19,925 nt of DNA, from the UHGV virus genome UHGV-1435313; one strand, given 5' to 3'. This DNA is from a virus. Each line of letters starts with the position of its first letter. The stretch's first letter is position 1. Below are positions 1 through 6,441 of this stretch, piece by piece. The notes beneath the pieces are model-generated. The model saw only the letters and a program-made list of their open reading frames with translations. It was not told the origin of the DNA and ran no database searches. A program made the translations under genes and the position numbers.

Positions 1-53
1 AACGAGCCCCTCCTAAGGGCTAATTGCAGGTTCGATTCCTGCAGGGGACACCA
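1..53 (+). tRNA. argW: 3' portion of a tRNA-Arg(CCU) gene (anticodon arm, variable loop, T-arm, acceptor 3' strand, CCA); the 5' part lies upstream of the window. Likely the prophage attL integration target.
   Basis: Seen in sequence: anticodon stem AGCCC/GGGCT (5-9 / 17-21) with loop CTCCTAA (anticodon CCT at 12-14), T-arm GCAGG-TTCGATT-CCTGC, acceptor 3' strand AGGGGAC, discriminator A, CCA at 51-53. Assignment to argW is from memory of E. coli tRNA-Arg(CCU), a known target of P4-family integrases; it was not checked with a tRNA scanner. Confidence 0.8.
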
Positions 54-178: not shown

Positions 179-214
179 GTGGATAAAATAATTTTACCCA
201 CCGGATTTTTACCC

Positions 215-1372
215 ATGCTCACCGTTAAGCAGATTGAAGCAGCAAAGCCGAAAGAAAAACCATACCGCCTACTCGATGGTAATGGCCTGTACCTTTATGT
301 CCCTGTGTCAGGGAAAAAGGTATGGCAGCTTCGCTACAAGATTGACGGTAAGGAGAAAATCCTGACCGTAGGAAAATATCCGCTAATGACTTTGCAGGAG
401 GCAAGAGATAAAGCATGGACCGCGAGGAAAGACATCTCGGTTGGCATCGATCCGGTAAAGGCGAAAAAGGCTTCGTCTAACAACAATTCCTTTAGTGCGA
501 TTTACAAGGAATGGTACGAGCACAAGAAGCAAGTCTGGTCAGTAGGCTATGCAAACGAACTTGCCAAAATGTTTGATGACGACATTTTACCCATCATCGG
601 CGGTCTTGAGATTCAGGATATTGAGCCGATGCAACTGTTGGAAGTAATCCGCAGATTTGAAGATCGCGGTGCAATGGAACGAGCCAACAAAGCACGCAGA
701 AGATGCGGCGAGGTTTTCCGTTACGCTATTGTCACCGGAAGGGCTAAATATAACCCGGCACCTGACCTTGCTGACGCCATGAAGGGATACCGCAAGAAGA
801 ACTTCCCGTTTCTTCCTGCAGACCAGATCCCGGCATTCAACAAAGCACTGGCAACATTTTCAGGAAGTATCGTATCGCTCATTGCGACCAAAGTTTTACG
901 CTACACAGCCCTCAGAACAAAAGAGCTTCGTTCCATGCTATGGAAGAACGTCGATTTTGAAAACAGGATTATCACCATCGACGCCAGTGTGATGAAGGGA
1001 CGCAAAATTCATGTGGTCCCGATGTCAGACCAGGTGGTTGAACTTCTAACTACGCTAAGCTCCATCACTAAACCAGTATCAGAGTTTGTTTTTGCCGGAC
1101 GCAACGATAAGAAGAAGCCAATCTGCGAGAACGCGGTATTGCTTGTGATCAAACAAATTGGCTATGAGGGTCTGGAAAGCGGTCACGGATTCAGGCATGA
1201 ATTCAGCACGATTATGAACGAGCACGAATGGCCCGCTGATGCTATTGAAGTGCAACTAGCACATGCCAACGGCGGTTCTGTGCGTGGAATTTACAACCAT
1301 GCTCAGTATCTCGATAAGCGCAGAGAAATGATGCAATGGTGGGCGGACTGGCTTGATGAATATAAGCTATGA
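215..1372 (+). CDS. int: Site-specific tyrosine recombinase, P4/IntS-family prophage integrase (385 aa from ATG 215; the ORF track's start at 179 is a GTG that adds 12 residues)
   Basis: N-terminus MLTVKQIEAAKPKEKPYRLLDGNGLYLYV is a typical P4-family arm-binding domain start. C-terminal catalytic region has GHGFRHEF (H-x-x-R) and the tyrosine in VRGIYNHAQY. It sits directly downstream of the tRNA in the same orientation, as for argW-intS and ssrA-intA in E. coli. Confidence 0.9.
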   Translation: MLTVKQIEAAKPKEKPYRLLDGNGLYLYVPVSGKKVWQLRYKIDGKEKILTVGKYPLMTLQEARDKAWTARKDISVGIDPVKAKKASSNNNSFSAIYKEWYEHKKQVWSVGYANELAKMFDDDILPIIGGLEIQDIEPMQLLEVIRRFEDRGAMERANKARRRCGEVFRYAIVTGRAKYNPAPDLADAMKGYRKKNFPFLPADQIPAFNKALATFSGSIVSLIATKVLRYTALRTKELRSMLWKNVDFENRIITIDASVMKGRKIHVVPMSDQVVELLTTLSSITKPVSEFVFAGRNDKKKPICENAVLLVIKQIGYEGLESGHGFRHEFSTIMNEHEWPADAIEVQLAHANGGSVRGIYNHAQYLDKRREMMQWWADWLDEYKL

Positions 1373-1373
1373 A

Positions 1374-1412
1374 TTAGCGCAAGAAGAAATAATGTTATTC
1401 ATCATGCGCTAA
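1374..1412. repeat. Inverted repeat TTAGCGCA(1374-1381)/TGCGCTAA(1405-1412) in the 48-bp gap between convergent int and tailspike; possible bidirectional terminator or protein-binding site
   Basis: 8-bp perfect inverted repeat seen directly; the 23-nt loop is long for a canonical intrinsic terminator. Confidence 0.3.
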
Positions 1413-1420
1413 TACTAGAT

Positions 1421-3427
1421 TTAGCTAATTAACTCAATTGTCGACGAGTTAGTACAATAAGCAGGCTGCTCTGTAACGACATCCCTAACCATCATTTTAG
1501 AGCTTGGACCGTTAGCGGTTAGATCTCCTGATTCTGCTGATGAATCTCTAACTATATTATTAAATGAGCAAATACCATCTATATAGCATAATGTTGATCC
1601 TGGTCGCACATCTGAATCAGTAACAACAAACCCCGCAATAGAATCGTGAACGGTGATCGCAACATTATATGTAGTTGATTCATCTATATCCTTGATCGCA
1701 GGCCCACGACATCCACTATATGAGCAGTTAATTCTTACGCCTTTGCATGACTCATGAGATGTAGACCCGTTATTATTATTTGCTCCTGACGTATCAAGAT
1801 ACCCATTACCAGCGCCTGTATTATTTACTTCAATAAAATGAGGGCTAATTCCTGATGCACCTTCATGATAGTTGAAACCATCACGCCTATTCGAATGAGC
1901 AATGCAATTTTCAGTAATTACAATACCAACATCTAGTGCTGATAAACCGTTGGAATTTGCGTCGTATGCACAACTGAACTCACAGTTCTTTGCGTAGAAC
2001 ACACCCTGCCTAAATGTACCGTCACTTTTTACCGTAAATGCTCCTGTAGATGTTCCTATATTATGGGAACCAAAAAACTTAAACCCCTCAAGATAAACTC
2101 GATGATTGCCACTCCACACCCATACATATGGATCTCGAGCATACTGAACTGAAATCCTATTTTGATTGGTATATACTGATTCCCCATTCTTTGTGTGCAC
2201 ATAAACCTTGTATCCATCTGATGCATCCACAAACCATGTCGAAGAAGTTGATTGGCATTCAGACAAAGAATTTACTTTTTTAAGTCTTTCATATCCGAAC
2301 TTAGGACTAAAGCTTCCTGTATCAAAAACTGCCAATGGTGTATTACCTGATAAAGTAGGAGTAAATAAGTTTAATCCATTACCAAAACCCCACACCCCCT
2401 GTTCTACACATCCAGCATAAACAGGGCCGCCAACTGCTATTATATTCAAACTTGCAGTAACATTGTATAGAGAAAGAGAAGATTCCCACGGGAGAATTGT
2501 ATTCCCTCTTACATAAATGGTATTTATATTTCTGCTTATCGCTTTTGTTAATGTTTTATATGCAGTCAGCCATGAATTACCATCTCCATTGGCATCATCG
2601 CCATTTACTGGATCAACATATATAGGTGATGTTGAAAATGTCTGTCTAAACACAGACAAGTCATTGCGCATCGTTGCTGAATTACCTCTTCTTTCATACA
2701 TTATATCTCCAAATCTTGTATATCCAATAGGAGAAGTGCTTCCAATTAAAGATGATGCTCCAGTTGATACCCTTTTAATTCTTTTTAGATAATCCGACCC
2801 GTACCTATATATATCGAAATTAATATTACCAAGTATGGTATTTACTCTCTGAAAAAATGATTCCTGCCCATTGTCAACAAGCCTAACAATTTCACCACTA
2901 TCAATACTGGATGCAATCATAGATTCTTTACTATAGAATGTCTTCCCAGCTATGACTAGTAATTCATCTGTTTTTTTATCTTTTTGTGTCAGTCTTTCCA
3001 ATTCATCATATACTGTTGTATTTCCAACAATAGATGATGAGTGCCCAACAAGTTCTGAGCCATTCGTCTGCTGCAATTCCTGTCTGAATCTGTCAGGGTC
3101 ATACTTCAGCACATTCGGGAAATAGAACTGCTGCACACCATACGCATCATATACAGCCATAGAATGGCCTTGCACAGTTACGAACTTGGCAATATGTCCG
3201 TTATATGCAGGGTAACCAGCAGCATTAATGATGATTGGTTGCGATACAGGAACGTGAGAGCCGTCTTCGTTCTCCACATAAACCTGAATCTGGTTTTCAG
3301 GATTTACCGGGTCAGTGTCAATTTTACCGATATAAATTTTACCATTGGCTACGGCTTTGAAAGAACGCGCCATAGTGAAGAGTTGCGAAGGCATACTCAC
3401 TACAACATTGGGTGTAATGTCTGACAT
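1421..3427 (-). CDS. Tailspike protein (P22 gp9 / Sf6 gp14 homolog), 668 aa from the internal ATG at 3425-3427: conserved N-terminal head-binding domain plus a divergent right-handed beta-helix receptor-binding/depolymerase part
   Basis: [59 protein letters not shown] matches the P22-like tailspike head-binding domain as I recall it. An AAGG Shine-Dalgarno lies ~10 nt upstream of this ATG. The C-terminal two thirds carry beta-helix-like Asn/Gly/Ser-rich repeats ([35 protein letters not shown]). The 32-codon in-frame upstream extension (to 3523) is judged non-coding. Confidence 0.85.
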
Positions 3428-3705
3428 TATACTTTTACCTTGCAGGTTTTGAGATGCTGCAAACTTAACTGGTAAGAGTGACGTCAGGCCGAGCAAAGAC
3501 TTTAGAAGAGTTCTTCTTTTCATGATTCTTCGTCAATTGTGATGGTCTAAAGGAATCATGCAAAAAAGAGTGTCTGTTATCAACCTGACAGTCACTTAAG
3601 TTGCGCAGCATTGCGTTAAAGTTTGATATAGTTTTGGTAAACAGGAGGATTTATGGACAGAGATTTATATAAAAAAGACTGCAACTAACCATCCGTGGCT
3701 TTCCG

Positions 3706-6441
3706 TTACTTCTGGTTATCATCACTGTTCATCCAGTACATGATGCCTAGCCTTGATATGGTTTTCTTATCTGATTCTGGAAGTGAGTTGTAAAACGAGC
3801 GCCAAGCAGAAGAGCGTCTTACAGTTGTATCAACGATGCTTTCTGGTGCTTGTTTTACTGCCAGCCTTGCTGCTTTCTGGAATTCTGGTGAGCTAATTAG
3901 CTTTTCTGCAGATTCAATTGATTCAGCGCCGCCCATCGCCCTGATTTTGCTGGCGACTTTTGCCCCAATTTCTGACCCAGCAACAGCACCTACTGCACTG
4001 AACGGTCCTGACACAGTTGAACCAACCGCAGTGCCAATGCGTTGGGCATGGTTAGCAACAAATTCATTTGCCGCAGTGACGCGATTAAACCGTTTGACGA
4101 ACTCGTTTAGTCTTCCTGTAGTTATCTCGTAAGATTTTGCGTCTTTTATAGCCTTTGCGACCTTATATACATCGTTCAGACCTGACATAGTCTCTTTTGG
4201 TAAATGTCGGGCAAGATTGCGCATCTGCCCGTTTGCTAACATGTTTTGATACCAGTCAGCAAACCCTGCAGGATTAAAATCAGCGCCACGTTTTCCGTTC
4301 GAAAGCATATCCCGAAGACCTGTTCCCAGTAGCTCGGTTCTTAGCTTCCTGGACGGCGTGTTTTGCATCAATTCACGAAATCCTTTGGCATCGCCTTTCG
4401 ACATTGCCTGTAGTGCTGTAGTTGCTTTGCGAGAAACATCACCGTTCAGCGTTCTGCCAGTTAGATTAATCATTTGCTCTTCCATGCTTTTTCGCATCTG
4501 AACAAGCCTCTGAGCAACTTCAAAATCACGTAATGCATTTGTCTCTGACAGCGCCGCCTTTTGATCATCGGCGAGCGAACCGTAAAGCCTCGATAAAGCA
4601 GCGCGATCAGCATCTTTATATGGTCCAGAATTCTTATGAAGTGCATCACCAACAAGTCGTCGTTGCTTATTGAGATTTGCATAAGTTAATGCGCCGTTCT
4701 TGCCTGGATTAACTGCCCGAAAGACTCTCTTTTCAATAGGGTCAAGGTTTTTCATCCCGCCAAGATCTTCTGCCACCTGTTTGAGCATTGACCTTGTTGA
4801 TGGCGCATCAATTTTTGCACCTGCAGGCATCGCCTTTTCAACATTGCGATAAAGCTGGTCGCTTCGTTTCATCAGCGCAGACATTCTTCCATTGACCGTA
4901 TCAATAAACTTGTCGCTCATACCAAGAGCATCTTTTGCACCGGAAACGCGATCAATTATCTCCCCCGCGCCCTGTGCTAGCTGCCTGATTGCTTCATTTT
5001 CCTGCACCTGTAGAGCAGAACCCGCACGGGACTTGATTGCTTGCTCAACTGCCTTGTATTGCTCGTTCCCGGAAAAGTGTGAAGGGAGTAATGAATCAAC
5101 ATTAAGCCTTTCAGCAGACTCCAGAACTTCAGCCTGAGGATTGATATCTAGTTCATCAAGCGATGAAGCGAGATTTGGCCTTTTTTGTGCTGCTACTGTG
5201 CGAACGACTTCCTCTGGGTTCCTCGTTGCAGGCGTCATTGGTACACCTTGTGCTACTCTTGCCTCTGCGGCATGAACCGCAGGATTTGTTGCTGCAGCGG
5301 CATCACCGGAGAATGGTGATGTTTCTGTTGCCGCAGTGGTCGCTCTCTGTGCAGATGTTTTATTGCCACTAATTATATTTGATGCACCACGAACACCACG
5401 GGTAACGCCATTTATCAGGCCATGCGTAGCAATGTTAAGTCCGGCATTAATAGCGGCATTTTCGGCAAAATCACCCCGTTGATTCGCCGCGTCAGCGAGA
5501 GAACCAATGACCATGTTTCCAGCTACTCCTGCTCCAGGAACAAGATAACCGCCCATTGACTCTCCAGCTTGCGCATAAGGGTCTGTCGGTCGATCTACTG
5601 GACGATAGACATCGTCCAAAACCTTGGGGCCACCAAGCCCCTGGCTGATTGCATTAATCAGACTTGCGCCACCCTGCAATACGTCAAATGGTATGTTTAC
5701 CAGACCACGACCAGCCTGCTCTGCAATTTGCCCTGCACTTTGACCACCTGTGAGCCAATCGCCAGCTTGTTGCATCAATGATGGTTCTTCACGTGCTGGT
5801 TCATTATTGGCCTGATTAACTGTTTGTTGCTGAACAGGTTTCGGTGCGACAGAACTTACGGGTTGAGGTGGCTGCTGACTGGCTGCCTGCTGCTCAATCT
5901 GAGCAAATGGATTATTTGGGTCTGACTGCACACCTGATGCCGATACTTGTTCGGATGACTGTGCTTCCAGTTGTGCAAACGGGTTGTTAGGGTCTTGCTG
6001 AGGATGTACCTTTGCAGAGGTGGCGCGCTGTTCGACTGTTGAGTCTGTCACCGGGTCACCCGCCCATTGAGCAAAGCGATCATCAACGTAGCCGCGGCCT
6101 TCAGGTCCTGGCGTATATTCACCACGCTTTGCCTTCATAACGTTGCCGGGACCGTCGTGATAAGCCTGAAGAGCGTCACGCCAGTTACCAAACTGCTGGT
6201 ACATCTTTGCCAGATAGCGCGCGCCAGCGTCAGCCTGATATTCGGGGTTTTGCATTTGCTCATCGGTATAACCCATATCACGCCATGTCCCAGGCATGAC
6301 CTGAGTCAATCCTACAGCCCCGGCGGAGCTTACTGCGGCAGGGTTGTAAGAAGACTCCTTGGCACCCAGTGCAGTCATCAACCCTTCTGGCACACCGTAA
6401 CGTGCGCCAGCCTGCTCTAACAAATCACGGTAATTAGCCAT
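3706..6441 (-). CDS. Ejection (internal virion) protein, P22 gp16-position homolog, 911 aa, with N-terminal family-1 lytic transglycosylase (SLT) domain
   Basis: Last gene of the E-protein trio before the tailspike. Residues ~20-100 (coords ~6142-6384) carry SLT motifs: catalytic E-S in [24 protein letters not shown], and AYHDGPGN (the AYNxG-type motif). Start abuts the preceding gene's stop (6441/6442). Confidence 0.75.
5887..5994 (-). repeat. Intragenic direct repeat encoding DPNNPFAQ(L/I)E(A/Q)Q twice, 24 codons apart, in a Gln/Pro-rich linker of the ejection protein
   Basis: Repeated peptide motif at residues 150-161 and 174-185 of the 911-aa protein; corresponding imperfect DNA repeat seen on the + strand (5896-5920 and 5961-5990). 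Confidence 0.5.

What the first reader, a model, noticed from the sequence alone, without database searches (positions are those of the whole stretch)
1421..3427. Mosaic tailspike: conserved head-binding N-terminus joined to an AT-rich, likely horizontally acquired receptor-binding part
The first ~125 residues match the P22-like tailspike head-binding domain, and that coding segment (~3100-3427) has GC around 43%. The remainder drops to roughly 28-38% GC in sampled 60-bp blocks (for example 2521-2580 and 1741-1800), against ~43-47% sampled elsewhere in the window. That is a signature of a receptor-binding module imported from a lower-GC source. This domain sets host O-antigen or capsule specificity, so it is the most likely host-range determinant. 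The beta-helix-like repeats suggest a glycan depolymerase or esterase of unknown specificity.
Basis: seen in the sequence. Interest (0 to 1): 0.45.

Follow-up and report, generated by a model that had tools for sequence, protein, structure and literature searches.

The report
Mosaic prophage tailspike, probably O87-specific
This is the tailspike gene of a P22-like prophage of E. coli, made of a widely shared virion-attachment domain joined to a rare, swapped-in sugar-recognising domain that most likely targets the O87 surface antigen. This kind of mosaic is ordinary and well known, but the gene also has an unexpected, conserved signal-peptide-like extension in front of it.

Summary
Window 1421-3427 (-) encodes a 668-aa P22-type tailspike. 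Residues 1-113 are a Pfam Head_binding domain (E 6e-65, about 90-93% DNA identity to more than 1,100 E. coli genomes). From codon about 113-123 onward, DNA homology, GC (0.44 to 0.374) and GC3 (0.45 to 0.25) all break at the same place.

Both complete E. coli genomes that carry it are among the only 3 of 5,426 with the O87 wzy, so O87 specificity is the best inference.

The "low-GC donor" reading is only partly supported. 94% of 66 other receptor-binding domains on this head-binding type also have lower GC3, and no donor was found.

Aside: a 32-codon in-frame, twin-arginine-like leader (3428-3523) is under purifying selection (8 of 8 substitutions synonymous).

The parts
3428..3523 (-). In-frame 32-codon leader ([32 protein letters not shown]) directly upstream of the canonical tailspike start. 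It looks like a twin-arginine signal peptide and would give a 700-aa long isoform.
   Evidence: There is no stop codon between 3523 and 3427. The identical peptide lies upstream of different receptor-binding domains in phages Bas106 and APC_JM3.2 and in prophages PigCaeca_1 and A30. A diverged DNA copy in IMG/VR locus L049 has 8 substitutions, all synonymous: pS 0.33, pN 0, p = 1.5e-5, against pS 0.355 in the adjacent head-binding domain. The Tat-signal HMMs give no hit.
3089..3427 (-). Head-binding (particle-binding) domain, aa 1-113.
   Evidence: Pfam PF09008, E 5.7e-65, profile positions 1-113 of 113. PDB matches to Sf6 gp14 (7sg7, E 7.5e-64) and to P22 gp9 structures. About 88-93% DNA identity to HK620, Sf6, CUS-3 and 1,112 of 5,426 E. 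coli genomes. GC 0.44, GC3 0.43.
3059..3092 (-). Mosaic junction or hinge (codons about 112-123, ..KYDPD|[11 protein letters not shown]..), the left end of the receptor-binding cassette.
   Evidence: Homology to the backbone-matched phage APC_JM3.2 (98.3%) and to the PigCaeca_1 prophage (97.9%) stops at gene nt 336 and 350. The longest E. coli matches stop at nt 369. The GC3 change point is at codon 123. Homology to tailspikes with other anchor domains begins at L118.
2642..3058 (-). N-terminal sub-region of the receptor-binding module (aa 124-262): neck helices plus a small beta domain.
   Evidence: Low-confidence part of the AlphaFold model, pLDDT about 30-60. Only 37-42% identical to the homologues P0002-P0006, against 64-80% for the beta-helix.
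1424..2641 (-). Right-handed parallel beta-helix with its C-terminal part (aa 263-668), the presumed glycan-binding and depolymerase domain. It begins with a DUF1565-like cap, [14 protein letters not shown].
1688..1882 (-). Candidate active-site rungs. Residues invariant across 27 distant homologues: D516-G-F-N-Y520 (1868-1882), E533 (1829-1831), T556 and H558 (1754-1762), D580 (1688-1690). R565 is nearly invariant. D369 (2321-2323) is also invariant but lies outside this span.
   Evidence: Invariant columns of alignments A2 and A3, with coordinates checked. Their spacing of about 17-25 residues fits successive beta-helix turns; that reading is an inference. A catalytic role was not tested.
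1373..1420 (.). Spacer between the convergent tailspike and integrase genes, the right end of the cassette.
   Evidence: The receptor-binding part plus this spacer are 99.6-100% identical to E. coli A2 and CUVET18-789, whereas the integrase is 98.2% and 96.7% identical.
179..1372 (+). IntS-type tyrosine integrase. No O-antigen-modification gene lies between it and the tailspike.
   Evidence: Pfam Phage_integrase, Phage_int_M and Arm-DNA-bind_3. Annotated intS in the matching genomes.
1..53 (+). 3' 53 nt of tRNA-Arg (argW), the prophage attachment junction.
   Evidence: Identical to the last 53 nt of the annotated tRNA-Arg of E. coli A2. ARAGORN finds no complete tRNA because the window cuts it.
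3706..6441 (-). Upstream neighbour: a gp16-like DNA-transfer (ejection) protein with an N-terminal lytic transglycosylase domain, 911 aa. It is backbone, not part of the cassette.
   Evidence: Pfam SLT E 3e-25; PHROG 21143 and PHROG 770 'DNA transfer protein'. 98.3% identical to APC_JM3.2 but with no match in the A2 or CUVET prophages.

Best explanation
This is the tailspike, the receptor-binding and probably receptor-destroying protein, of a P22-like (Lederbergvirus-type) prophage integrated at tRNA-Arg argW of an E. coli chromosome.

Shown here:
- Residues 1-113 are the conserved head-binding domain.
- At codons about 113-123 the gene switches to a separately inherited cassette (aa about 118-668).
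- The cassette has a low-confidence neck and a well-predicted right-handed beta-helix.
- It has recently spread, nearly unchanged, among divergent argW prophages.
- More distant copies (62-63% identity) sit on the anchor domains of a T7-like podovirus, a Skate-like siphovirus and a Gamaleyavirus.

Inferred:
- Recombination in or next to the conserved ..VLKYDPD / LRxxL..G..VG hinge swaps cassettes (p about 0.9).
- The cassette recognises the E. coli O87 O-antigen (p about 0.65).
- It cleaves that polymer through acidic and His residues on successive helix turns (D516, E533, H558, D580), most likely as an endoglycosidase (p about 0.5). A lyase is the main alternative (about 0.2).

By analogy with P22 and Sf6 (established knowledge), the head-binding domain docks the trimeric spike on the tail hub. 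Cleavage lets the virion descend through the O-antigen layer to the outer membrane, where the needle and ejection proteins act.

The low GC of the cassette reflects the generally AT-rich pool of tailspike receptor-binding cassettes rather than an identifiable low-GC donor.
For: Identity and context:
- Head_binding domain.
- P22-type late-gene order: portal, scaffold, coat, gp4, gp10, needle, gp7/20/16-like, tailspike, int, argW.

Mosaic boundary:
- Homology to backbone-matched phages ends at gene nt 336-350.
- Only the first 336-369 nt match phages and 1,110 other E. coli genomes.
- The GC3 change point is at codon 123.

Cassette behaviour:
- The receptor-binding part plus spacer are 99.6-99.9% identical among the window, A2 and CUVET18-789.
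- The head-binding domain is 91-93% identical, the integrase 96.7-98.2%, and the rest of the prophage is 70-96% identical or unmatched.

Cross-lineage sharing:
- P0002-P0006 are 62-63% identical over 99% of the module and carry PF18668 or PF03906 anchors.
- They lie in a Skate-like siphovirus, a T7-like phage and a Gamaleyavirus.
- This is the pattern described for O16 tailspikes (PMC11990801) and for other serogroups (PMC10408124).

Fold:
- AlphaFold pLDDT is 79 overall, and 80-97 in most 10-residue blocks of the helix.
- Invariant acidic and His residues.

O87:
- The O87 wzy gene is present in only 3 of 5,426 complete genomes.
- The only two genomes with this cassette are among them. The hypergeometric chance is 3/14,718,025, about 2e-7.
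- The two hosts are not clonal: the argW flank is 99.17% and the his operon 96.6% identical.
- The window carries a third, different prophage backbone.
Against: - No experiment was done, and specificity rests on two lysogens.
- The host of the window itself is unknown.
- The third O87 genome (NCTC9087) lacks the cassette.
- The enzyme class is unresolved. There is no Pfam, NCBIfam or PDB sequence match for the helix apart from its N-cap.
- The best structural neighbours are only 16% identical and include both hydrolases and lyases.
- Catalytic equivalence could not be checked because the tools return no structural alignment.
- The neck region is poorly modelled.
- The window copy is more AT-rich (GC3 0.25) than its 62-63% homologues (GC3 0.33-0.40). 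A spell in a lower-GC background therefore cannot be excluded.
Confidence: 0.75

Rival explanations
1. One reading: the receptor-binding part was imported from a lower-GC organism or its phages, and its AT-richness is the un-ameliorated signature of that donor.
For: GC 0.374 and GC3 0.248 against 0.48 and 0.48 for the rest of the window. The window copy is more AT-rich than the 62-63% homologues in coliphage or Salmonella-phage backbones, which have GC 0.42-0.45 and GC3 0.33-0.40.
Against: 94% of 66 other receptor-binding domains on the same head-binding type also have lower GC3 than their head-binding domain, and 17% are as AT-rich or more so. No relative closer than 30% was found in one genome each of 185,579 species. 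None closer than 26% was found in IMG/VR. The only close carriers are E. coli. E. coli O-antigen loci are themselves AT-rich, with the O87 cluster at 0.31, so low GC is typical of this functional pool.
Confidence: 0.2
2. The cassette targets a capsule or exopolysaccharide (a K antigen or colanic acid) rather than the O87 O-antigen, and the O87 link is a coincidence of lineage.
Against: Two of two carriers fall within the 3 of 5,426 O87 genomes, and the hosts are non-clonal. The PHROG label 'colanic acid degradation' applies only to the shared N-terminal 176 residues. Prophage tailspike type is reported to track host O-serogroup in Lederbergviruses (PMC10408124).
Confidence: 0.12
3. The beta-helix binds the glycan without cleaving it, or it modifies it (for example deacetylation) rather than depolymerising it.
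For: No catalytic family could be assigned. The O87 cluster encodes an acyltransferase, so O-acetyl groups may be present. G7C gp63.1, in whose genomic position the Gamaleyavirus homologue sits, is an esterase spike.
Against: There is no SGNH or other esterase domain. Acidic and His residues are invariant on consecutive rungs across homologues that are 22-33% identical. The closest folds are enzymes.
Confidence: 0.13
4. There is no mosaic: the composition step is caused by the amino-acid content or by chance fluctuation within a vertically inherited gene.
For: Beta-helix proteins rich in Asn, Ser, Thr and Gly can lower GC1 and GC2 somewhat.
Against: The drop is in GC3 (0.45 to 0.25; p = 1.4e-5 within the gene, 4e-26 against other genes). 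It coincides with an abrupt loss of DNA homology. Within one gene, identities to relatives are discordant: 91-93% in one part against 99.6-99.9% in the other.
Confidence: 0.01

Closest known systems
Lederbergvirus tailspikes: P22 gp9, Sf6 gp14, HK620 gp9, CUS-3 endosialidase spike
   Same: [quoted passage not shown] They occupy the same gene position, after the ejection proteins and next to int. They have the same overall design, a head-binding domain joined by a hinge to a beta-helix receptor-binding part.
   Different: The receptor-binding part shows no detectable sequence similarity to theirs. PDB matches stop at residue about 120, and there is no BLASTP hit to HK620, Sf6, CUS-3, Bas106 or 66 other types at E < 0.01. 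The predicted specificity (O87) has not been described for any tailspike in the papers searched. No O-antigen-conversion gene follows it, unlike Sf6 oac, HK620 hkcF and the O104:H4 prophage acyltransferase. It carries an in-frame leader, which 52 of 80 related loci lack entirely.
Serogroup-specific tailspike cassettes shared across phage genera: O16 spikes of Bas106, Bas105, Bas96 and small siphoviruses (PMC11990801), and the receptor-binding-protein subtypes of Pas et al. 2023 (PMC10408124)
   Same: The phenomenon is identical: one receptor-binding domain on Lederberg-, Kayfuna/T7-like-, Gamaleya- and siphovirus anchor domains. Specificity is inferred from the prophage host's serogroup.
   Different: This is a different receptor-binding sequence family and a different, rare serogroup. 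O87 is not among the serogroups those studies assign (0 occurrences of O87).
BT1002 (GH141 endo-acting fucosidase, PDB 5MQP) and Pel9A (PL9 pectate lyase, PDB 1RU4)
   Different: Identity is only 16%. There is no HMM-level relationship. Both are monomeric bacterial enzymes acting on plant pectin. Equivalence of catalytic residues was not testable.
LtfA of T5-like phage DT571/2
   Same: It is the only phage receptor-binding protein found in the searched literature with experimentally shown O87 specificity (PMC4728585).
   Different: It is a lateral tail fibre, not a tailspike. No T5-like phage appears among the tblastn hits of this receptor-binding domain.
Pantoea stewartii WceF (PDB 6TGF)
   Same: It is a trimeric beta-helix glycan-modifying enzyme. 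Its N-terminal domain matches this head-binding domain (E 3e-11, chain residues 48-173). It is preceded by a Tat signal peptide (PMC7949094). That is the same order of parts as the long isoform here: leader, head-binding domain, beta-helix.
   Different: WceF is a chromosomal exopolysaccharide-cluster gene, not a virion protein. The leader here is not recognised by Tat-signal HMMs, and its export is untested.

Membership tests
P22-like (Lederbergvirus) tailspike | N-terminal head-binding domain (Pfam PF09008) | tested here: met
   E 5.7e-65, 217 bits against a cut-off of 24, full profile 1-113. Sf6 and P22 structures match over aa 1-120.
P22-like (Lederbergvirus) tailspike | Encoded at the end of a P22-type late operon, after the gp7/gp20/gp16-like ejection proteins and next to int/att | tested here: met
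   ORF order and sizes. SLT and DNA-transfer protein upstream, integrase downstream. Annotated P22 coat, gp4, gp10, needle and ejection proteins in the matching genomes. argW tRNA fragment at window 1-53.
P22-like (Lederbergvirus) tailspike | C-terminal right-handed parallel beta-helix receptor-binding domain | tested here: met
P22-like (Lederbergvirus) tailspike | Homotrimer that cleaves the host O-antigen | not testable with these tools
   Only a monomer was modelled, and there was no enzymology.
O87-specific receptor-binding-protein subtype (criterion of Pas et al. 2023: prophage spike matches host serogroup) | All lysogens carrying the cassette belong to one O serogroup | tested here: met
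   Two of two carriers (A2, CUVET18-789) have O87 wzx and wzy. O87 wzy is in 3 of 5,426 genomes. The hosts are non-clonal. The sample is small.
Glycoside hydrolase family GH141 | Sequence membership and the catalytic Asp pair (BT1002 D523 and D564) | tested here: inconclusive
Polysaccharide lyase PL9 / Pel9A-like beta-helix (Pfam PF22842) / DUF1565 (PF07602) | Match to the family HMM | tested here: not met
   The query has no Pfam hit beyond Head_binding. Only 1-2 of 27 distant homologues touch PF22842 or PF07602, and weakly (E 5e-3 and 1e-4). The N-cap motif YVDP.NG.D..GDG resembles the DUF1565 cap.
SGNH esterase tailspikes (G7C gp63.1 type) | SGNH/GDSL hydrolase domain | tested here: not met
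   No such domain in Pfam, PHROG or NCBIfam scans.
Twin-arginine (Tat) signal peptides (applies to the leader at 3428-3523) | S/T-R-R-x-F-L-K-like motif, moderately hydrophobic h-region, basic residue in the c-region, A-x-A-type cleavage site; recognised by the Pfam or TIGRFAM Tat-signal models | tested here: inconclusive
   By eye the motif fits in both leader types ([16 protein letters not shown]..KFAAS|Q). No hit in Pfam or NCBIfam at E <= 10. No SignalP or TatP tool was available.

The most novel reading that the evidence does not exclude
The tailspike gene has two starts. The upstream start (3523) adds a conserved 32-residue twin-arginine-like signal peptide. The long form would then be exported as a folded trimer, as in the bacterial tailspike-like enzyme WceF. 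It would act as a soluble, periplasmic or released O-antigen-trimming enzyme. Possible roles are superinfection exclusion or lysogenic conversion in prophages that carry no gtr or oac gene, or receptor destruction at lysis. The short form (start 3427) would build virions.

The evidence does not exclude this:
- The leader is in frame in every copy seen.
- There are two diverged leader families attached to at least seven different receptor-binding domains.
- One family shows 8 of 8 synonymous substitutions.

Export itself is untested.
Probability: 0.2. Interest if true: 0.7.

Novelty: new member of a known kind. Interest (0 to 1): 0.3.

Why it matters
Tailspike mosaicism at the head-binding/receptor-binding hinge is textbook, so the finding mainly adds one more cassette to a known system.

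Its practical value is a sequence-level candidate for an O87-specific tailspike depolymerase. No O87 tailspike is reported in the papers searched; the only O87-specific phage protein found there is a T5-like fibre. It belongs to an uncharacterised beta-helix family with relatives in at least four phage lineages. It could serve for serotyping or engineering host range.

The control analysis gives a useful caution. A GC drop in a tailspike receptor-binding domain is the rule (94% of 66 types) and should not be read as evidence for a particular low-GC donor.

The conserved signal-like leader, if it proves to drive export, would reveal an unrecognised second role for P22-like tailspikes.

Tried and rejected
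- Near-identity to a characterised tailspike: rejected. Megablast against 50,697 phage records matches only the first about 340 nt. tblastn with the receptor-binding part finds nothing above 32%. PDB phmmer and profile searches match only the head-binding domain or the beta-helix N-cap. BLASTP against 66 IMG/VR receptor-binding types plus Bas106, HK620, Sf6, CUS-3, the O104:H4 prophage, PigCaeca_1 and BS15R-A gives no hit.
- Search for a donor: the single-protein scan of GTDB species genomes found nothing. The A2 alignment was too divergent to use. The A3 alignment found one 30% relative in Pseudomonas syringae. IMG/VR gave only 25-26% relatives.
- Assigning an enzyme family: Pfam, PHROG and NCBIfam are uninformative for the helix. 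Foldseek PDB TM-scores are low, at most 0.45. The top BFVD neighbours (ranks 1-7) are unnamed or carry only predicted names, which did not help assign an enzyme class.
- The O87 repeat-unit structure could not be read. The Carbohydrate Research paper is not held and the review's supplements are not held. Sugar composition is therefore only guessed from gene annotations (glf, Gnu-type epimerase, acyltransferase, two GT4, DUF4422).
- Tat HMMs on the leader: no hit. A search of the 5.8-billion-protein database with the leader found only one partial tailspike, so the leader is not borrowed from a known exported protein.
- The promoter and terminator scan around the gene was not above the shuffle expectation.
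- There is no complete tRNA in the window, only the 3' 53 nt of argW.
Full report
**1. What is at the coordinates**

The window is the late, right-hand end of a P22-like prophage.
- On the minus strand lie terminase, portal, scaffold, coat, gp4, gp10, needle, gp7/gp20/gp16-like ejection proteins and the tailspike.
- A convergent IntS-type integrase (179-1372, +) follows, then the last 53 nt of tRNA-Arg argW at window 1-53.
- The tailspike ORF is 1421..3427 (-), 668 aa. The purely mechanical ORF continues upstream to 3523.

**2. Checking the observation**

Pfam Head_binding covers residues 1-113 (E 5.7e-65). The Sf6 and P22 tailspike structures align only with residues 1 to about 120.

On full computation:

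| Region | GC | GC3 |
|---|---|---|
| Head-binding segment | 0.44 | 0.43-0.45 |
| Remainder of the gene | 0.374 | 0.248 |
| 15 other genes of the window | 0.45-0.52 | 0.37-0.65 |

- The difference lies in third codon positions: Fisher p = 1.4e-5 within the gene and 4e-26 against the other genes.
- The maximum-likelihood GC3 change point is codon 123.

**3. The mosaic boundary**

- Megablast against 50,697 phage records and 5,426 complete E. coli genomes matches only the first 336-369 nt of the gene. Identity is 88-93%, and 1,112 genomes are hit.
- Phage APC_JM3.2 and the PigCaeca_1 prophage share the window's backbone at 98% through the gp16-like gene, the intergenic region and the head-binding domain. 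Homology stops dead at gene nt 336 and 350, just after ..VLKYDPD.
- Homology to tailspikes carrying other anchor domains begins at L118 in the hinge ..[15 protein letters not shown]...
- DNA homology, protein homology and composition all break within codons about 112-123.

**4. The C-terminal part behaves as a cassette**

Only two complete E. coli genomes carry it: A2 (platypus, Australia) and CUVET18-789 (cat, Thailand). Both carry it in argW prophages.

Identity among the window, A2 and CUVET:

| Segment | Identity |
|---|---|
| Receptor-binding part plus 49-nt spacer | 99.6-100% |
| Head-binding domain | 91-93% |
| Integrase | 96.7-98.2% |
| Rest of the prophages | 70-96%, or unrelated |

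A search of the large protein database found five clusters 62-63% identical over 99% of the module.
- They are fused to Tail_spike_N (PF18668) or T7-tail-fibre (PF03906) anchors, or to a Gamaleyavirus gp63.1-position anchor.
- Their contigs are a Skate-like siphovirus, a T7-like podovirus and a Gamaleyavirus.
- This is the known pattern of receptor-binding-domain exchange across phage genera (PMC10408124; PMC11990801).

**5. Is the low GC a donor signature?**

As a control I collected 80 IMG/VR loci with close relatives of this head-binding domain. They carry 66 distinct receptor-binding sequences.
- 94% of them have lower GC3 than their own head-binding domain.
- Median receptor-binding GC is 0.408 and GC3 0.313.
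- The window's cassette sits at the 17th percentile for GC and the 8th for GC3.
- Known spikes span the same range: HK620 0.457, Sf6 0.444, the O104:H4 prophage 0.397, SCZE5 0.351.

No close relative exists in one genome each of 185,579 species or in IMG/VR.

The 62-63% homologues are less AT-rich than the window copy, with GC3 0.33-0.40. A history in a lower-GC setting cannot be excluded, but nothing identifies one.

AT-richness is best read as a class property of these cassettes. It parallels the AT-rich O-antigen loci they track; the O87 cluster has GC 0.31.

**6. Structure and likely chemistry**

An AlphaFold2 model of residues 114-668 was built from 27 sequences. Mean pLDDT is 79, and most 10-residue blocks from about residue 263 onward score 80-97. 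[quoted passage not shown]

- Next come an alginate epimerase/lyase, a PL9 rhamnogalacturonan lyase and an alginate lyase, followed by phi29 gp12, Staphylococcus phage Andhra gp15 and CBA120 TSP2. Many capsule depolymerases follow further down.
- All are at 8-17% identity.

Foldseek against PDB and BFVD agrees on the fold but did not help assign an enzyme class.

Across homologues only 22-33% identical, the invariant residues are D369, D516-G-F-N-Y520, E533, T556, H558 and D580. R565 is nearly invariant.
- From D516 to D580 these residues are spaced about one helix turn apart, as expected for a groove active site. This is an inference.
- No SGNH or esterase domain is present.

I commit to a depolymerase, more likely a hydrolase. 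A lyase remains open, because both host O87 loci are flanked by an NAD-dependent epimerase between ugd and wzzB. In my own knowledge such a gene is often a UDP-GlcA 4-epimerase.

**7. Specificity**

Both carriers have O87-family wzx and wzy.
- The O87 wzy gene occurs in only 3 of 5,426 complete genomes: A2, CUVET18-789 and NCTC9087.
- Under independence, the chance that the two carriers both fall in that set is about 2e-7.
- The two hosts differ by 0.8% in the argW flank and 3.4% in the his operon, more than the cassette does, so they are not one clone.
- The window represents a third prophage backbone.

By the published logic that Lederbergvirus prophage spikes match their host's O serogroup, O87 is the best prediction.

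The only O87-specific phage protein I found in the literature, LtfA of DT571/2, is unrelated.

**8. An unexpected extra: the leader**

The 96 nt upstream of the canonical ATG are open and in frame. They encode [32 protein letters not shown].
- The identical leader precedes different receptor-binding domains in Bas106 (where it is annotated as part of the CDS), APC_JM3.2, two prophages and IMG/VR loci.
- A diverged copy (L049) differs at 8 of 96 nt, all synonymous. Its pS is 0.33 and pN 0, against pS 0.355 and pN 0.033 in the adjacent head-binding domain; p = 1.5e-5. No other frame shows this pattern.
- A second, 31-residue family, MNRRSFFKSI(S/A)SFVALTPLSSLS(N/S)MSNRIAH, is likewise in frame in CUVET18-789 and two IMG/VR loci.
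- Both look like twin-arginine signal peptides, but the Tat HMMs do not recognise them.
- WceF of Pantoea, a Tat-exported trimeric beta-helix enzyme, has an N-terminal domain that matches this head-binding domain. It shows that such an architecture can be exported.
- These prophages have no O-antigen-conversion gene after the spike, unlike Sf6, HK620 and the O104:H4 prophage.

Whether the long form is exported is unknown. I record it as the most novel reading not excluded.

**9. Verdict**

The finding is a correct description of an ordinary, well-understood kind of mosaic.
- It is a new member: an uncharacterised receptor-binding family, probably O87-specific.
- The gene start deserves a second look.

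Noticed in passing
window 3428-3523 (-); also L049, L020, L060, L079, L005 8899-8991, L018 2550-2645: An in-frame, twin-arginine-like 31-32-residue leader lies upstream of the canonical tailspike start. There are two diverged families, each attached to several different receptor-binding domains. One pair of copies differs by 8 substitutions, all synonymous (p = 1.5e-5). The Tat HMMs are negative. Only one protein in the 5.8-billion-sequence database starts with it, a partial tailspike from Salmonella Kentucky (P0031).
   Followed up: partly
window 1373-1420: No O-antigen-modification (lysogenic conversion) gene lies between the tailspike and the integrase; only a 48-nt spacer separates the convergent stops. 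Sf6 has oac there, HK620 has hkcF, the O104:H4 prophage has an acyltransferase and PigCaeca_1 has an SGNH hydrolase.
   Followed up: no
window 3706-6441 (-): The gp16-like ejection protein is 911 aa with an N-terminal SLT lytic transglycosylase domain. It is 98% identical to that of phage APC_JM3.2. It has no blastn match to the 665-aa counterpart in the A2 and CUVET prophages, which carry the same tailspike cassette. This is another mosaic boundary.
   Followed up: partly
window about 3620-3655 (+ strand): A strong Shine-Dalgarno sequence (AGGAGG) is followed by ATG and a 10-codon ORF (MDRDLYKKDCN*), divergent from the tailspike. In prophage A30 and locus L049 the same start continues into a hydrophobic small protein (MDRDLLNFAFLTFGLVIGKLLFA..). 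The window copy looks truncated.
   Followed up: no
L020-L099 (IMG/VR loci with the same head-binding type): Eighty loci with head-binding domains 92-96% identical carry 66 distinct receptor-binding sequences. None is similar to the window's. Most begin with a shared hinge motif, (L/F)RxxL..xxGxxx(I/V)G, and 94% have lower GC3 than the head-binding domain.
   Followed up: yes
L007 22520-23524 and L009 20452-21456 (E. coli A2 and CUVET18-789 O87 loci): Both O87 loci have an NAD-dependent epimerase between ugd and wzzB, and a Gnu-type 4-epimerase upstream of galF. The cluster itself has glf, a DUF4422 gene, an acyltransferase and two GT4 genes. This suggests a GalNAc-initiated, Galf-containing, O-acetylated repeat that may include a uronic acid. 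The published O87 structure could not be read.
   Followed up: no
L004 2196-5033 (Gamaleyavirus contig): The 62%-identical homologue of the cassette sits on a 945-aa protein in the position of G7C gp63.1, followed by a second spike with a Tail_spike_N domain. This is the branched two-spike arrangement of G7C-like phages.
   Followed up: no
L014 3001-5221 (E. coli SCZE5 prophage): A P22-like tailspike with an even more AT-rich receptor-binding domain (GC 0.351) is truncated by an IS1A insertion.
   Followed up: no
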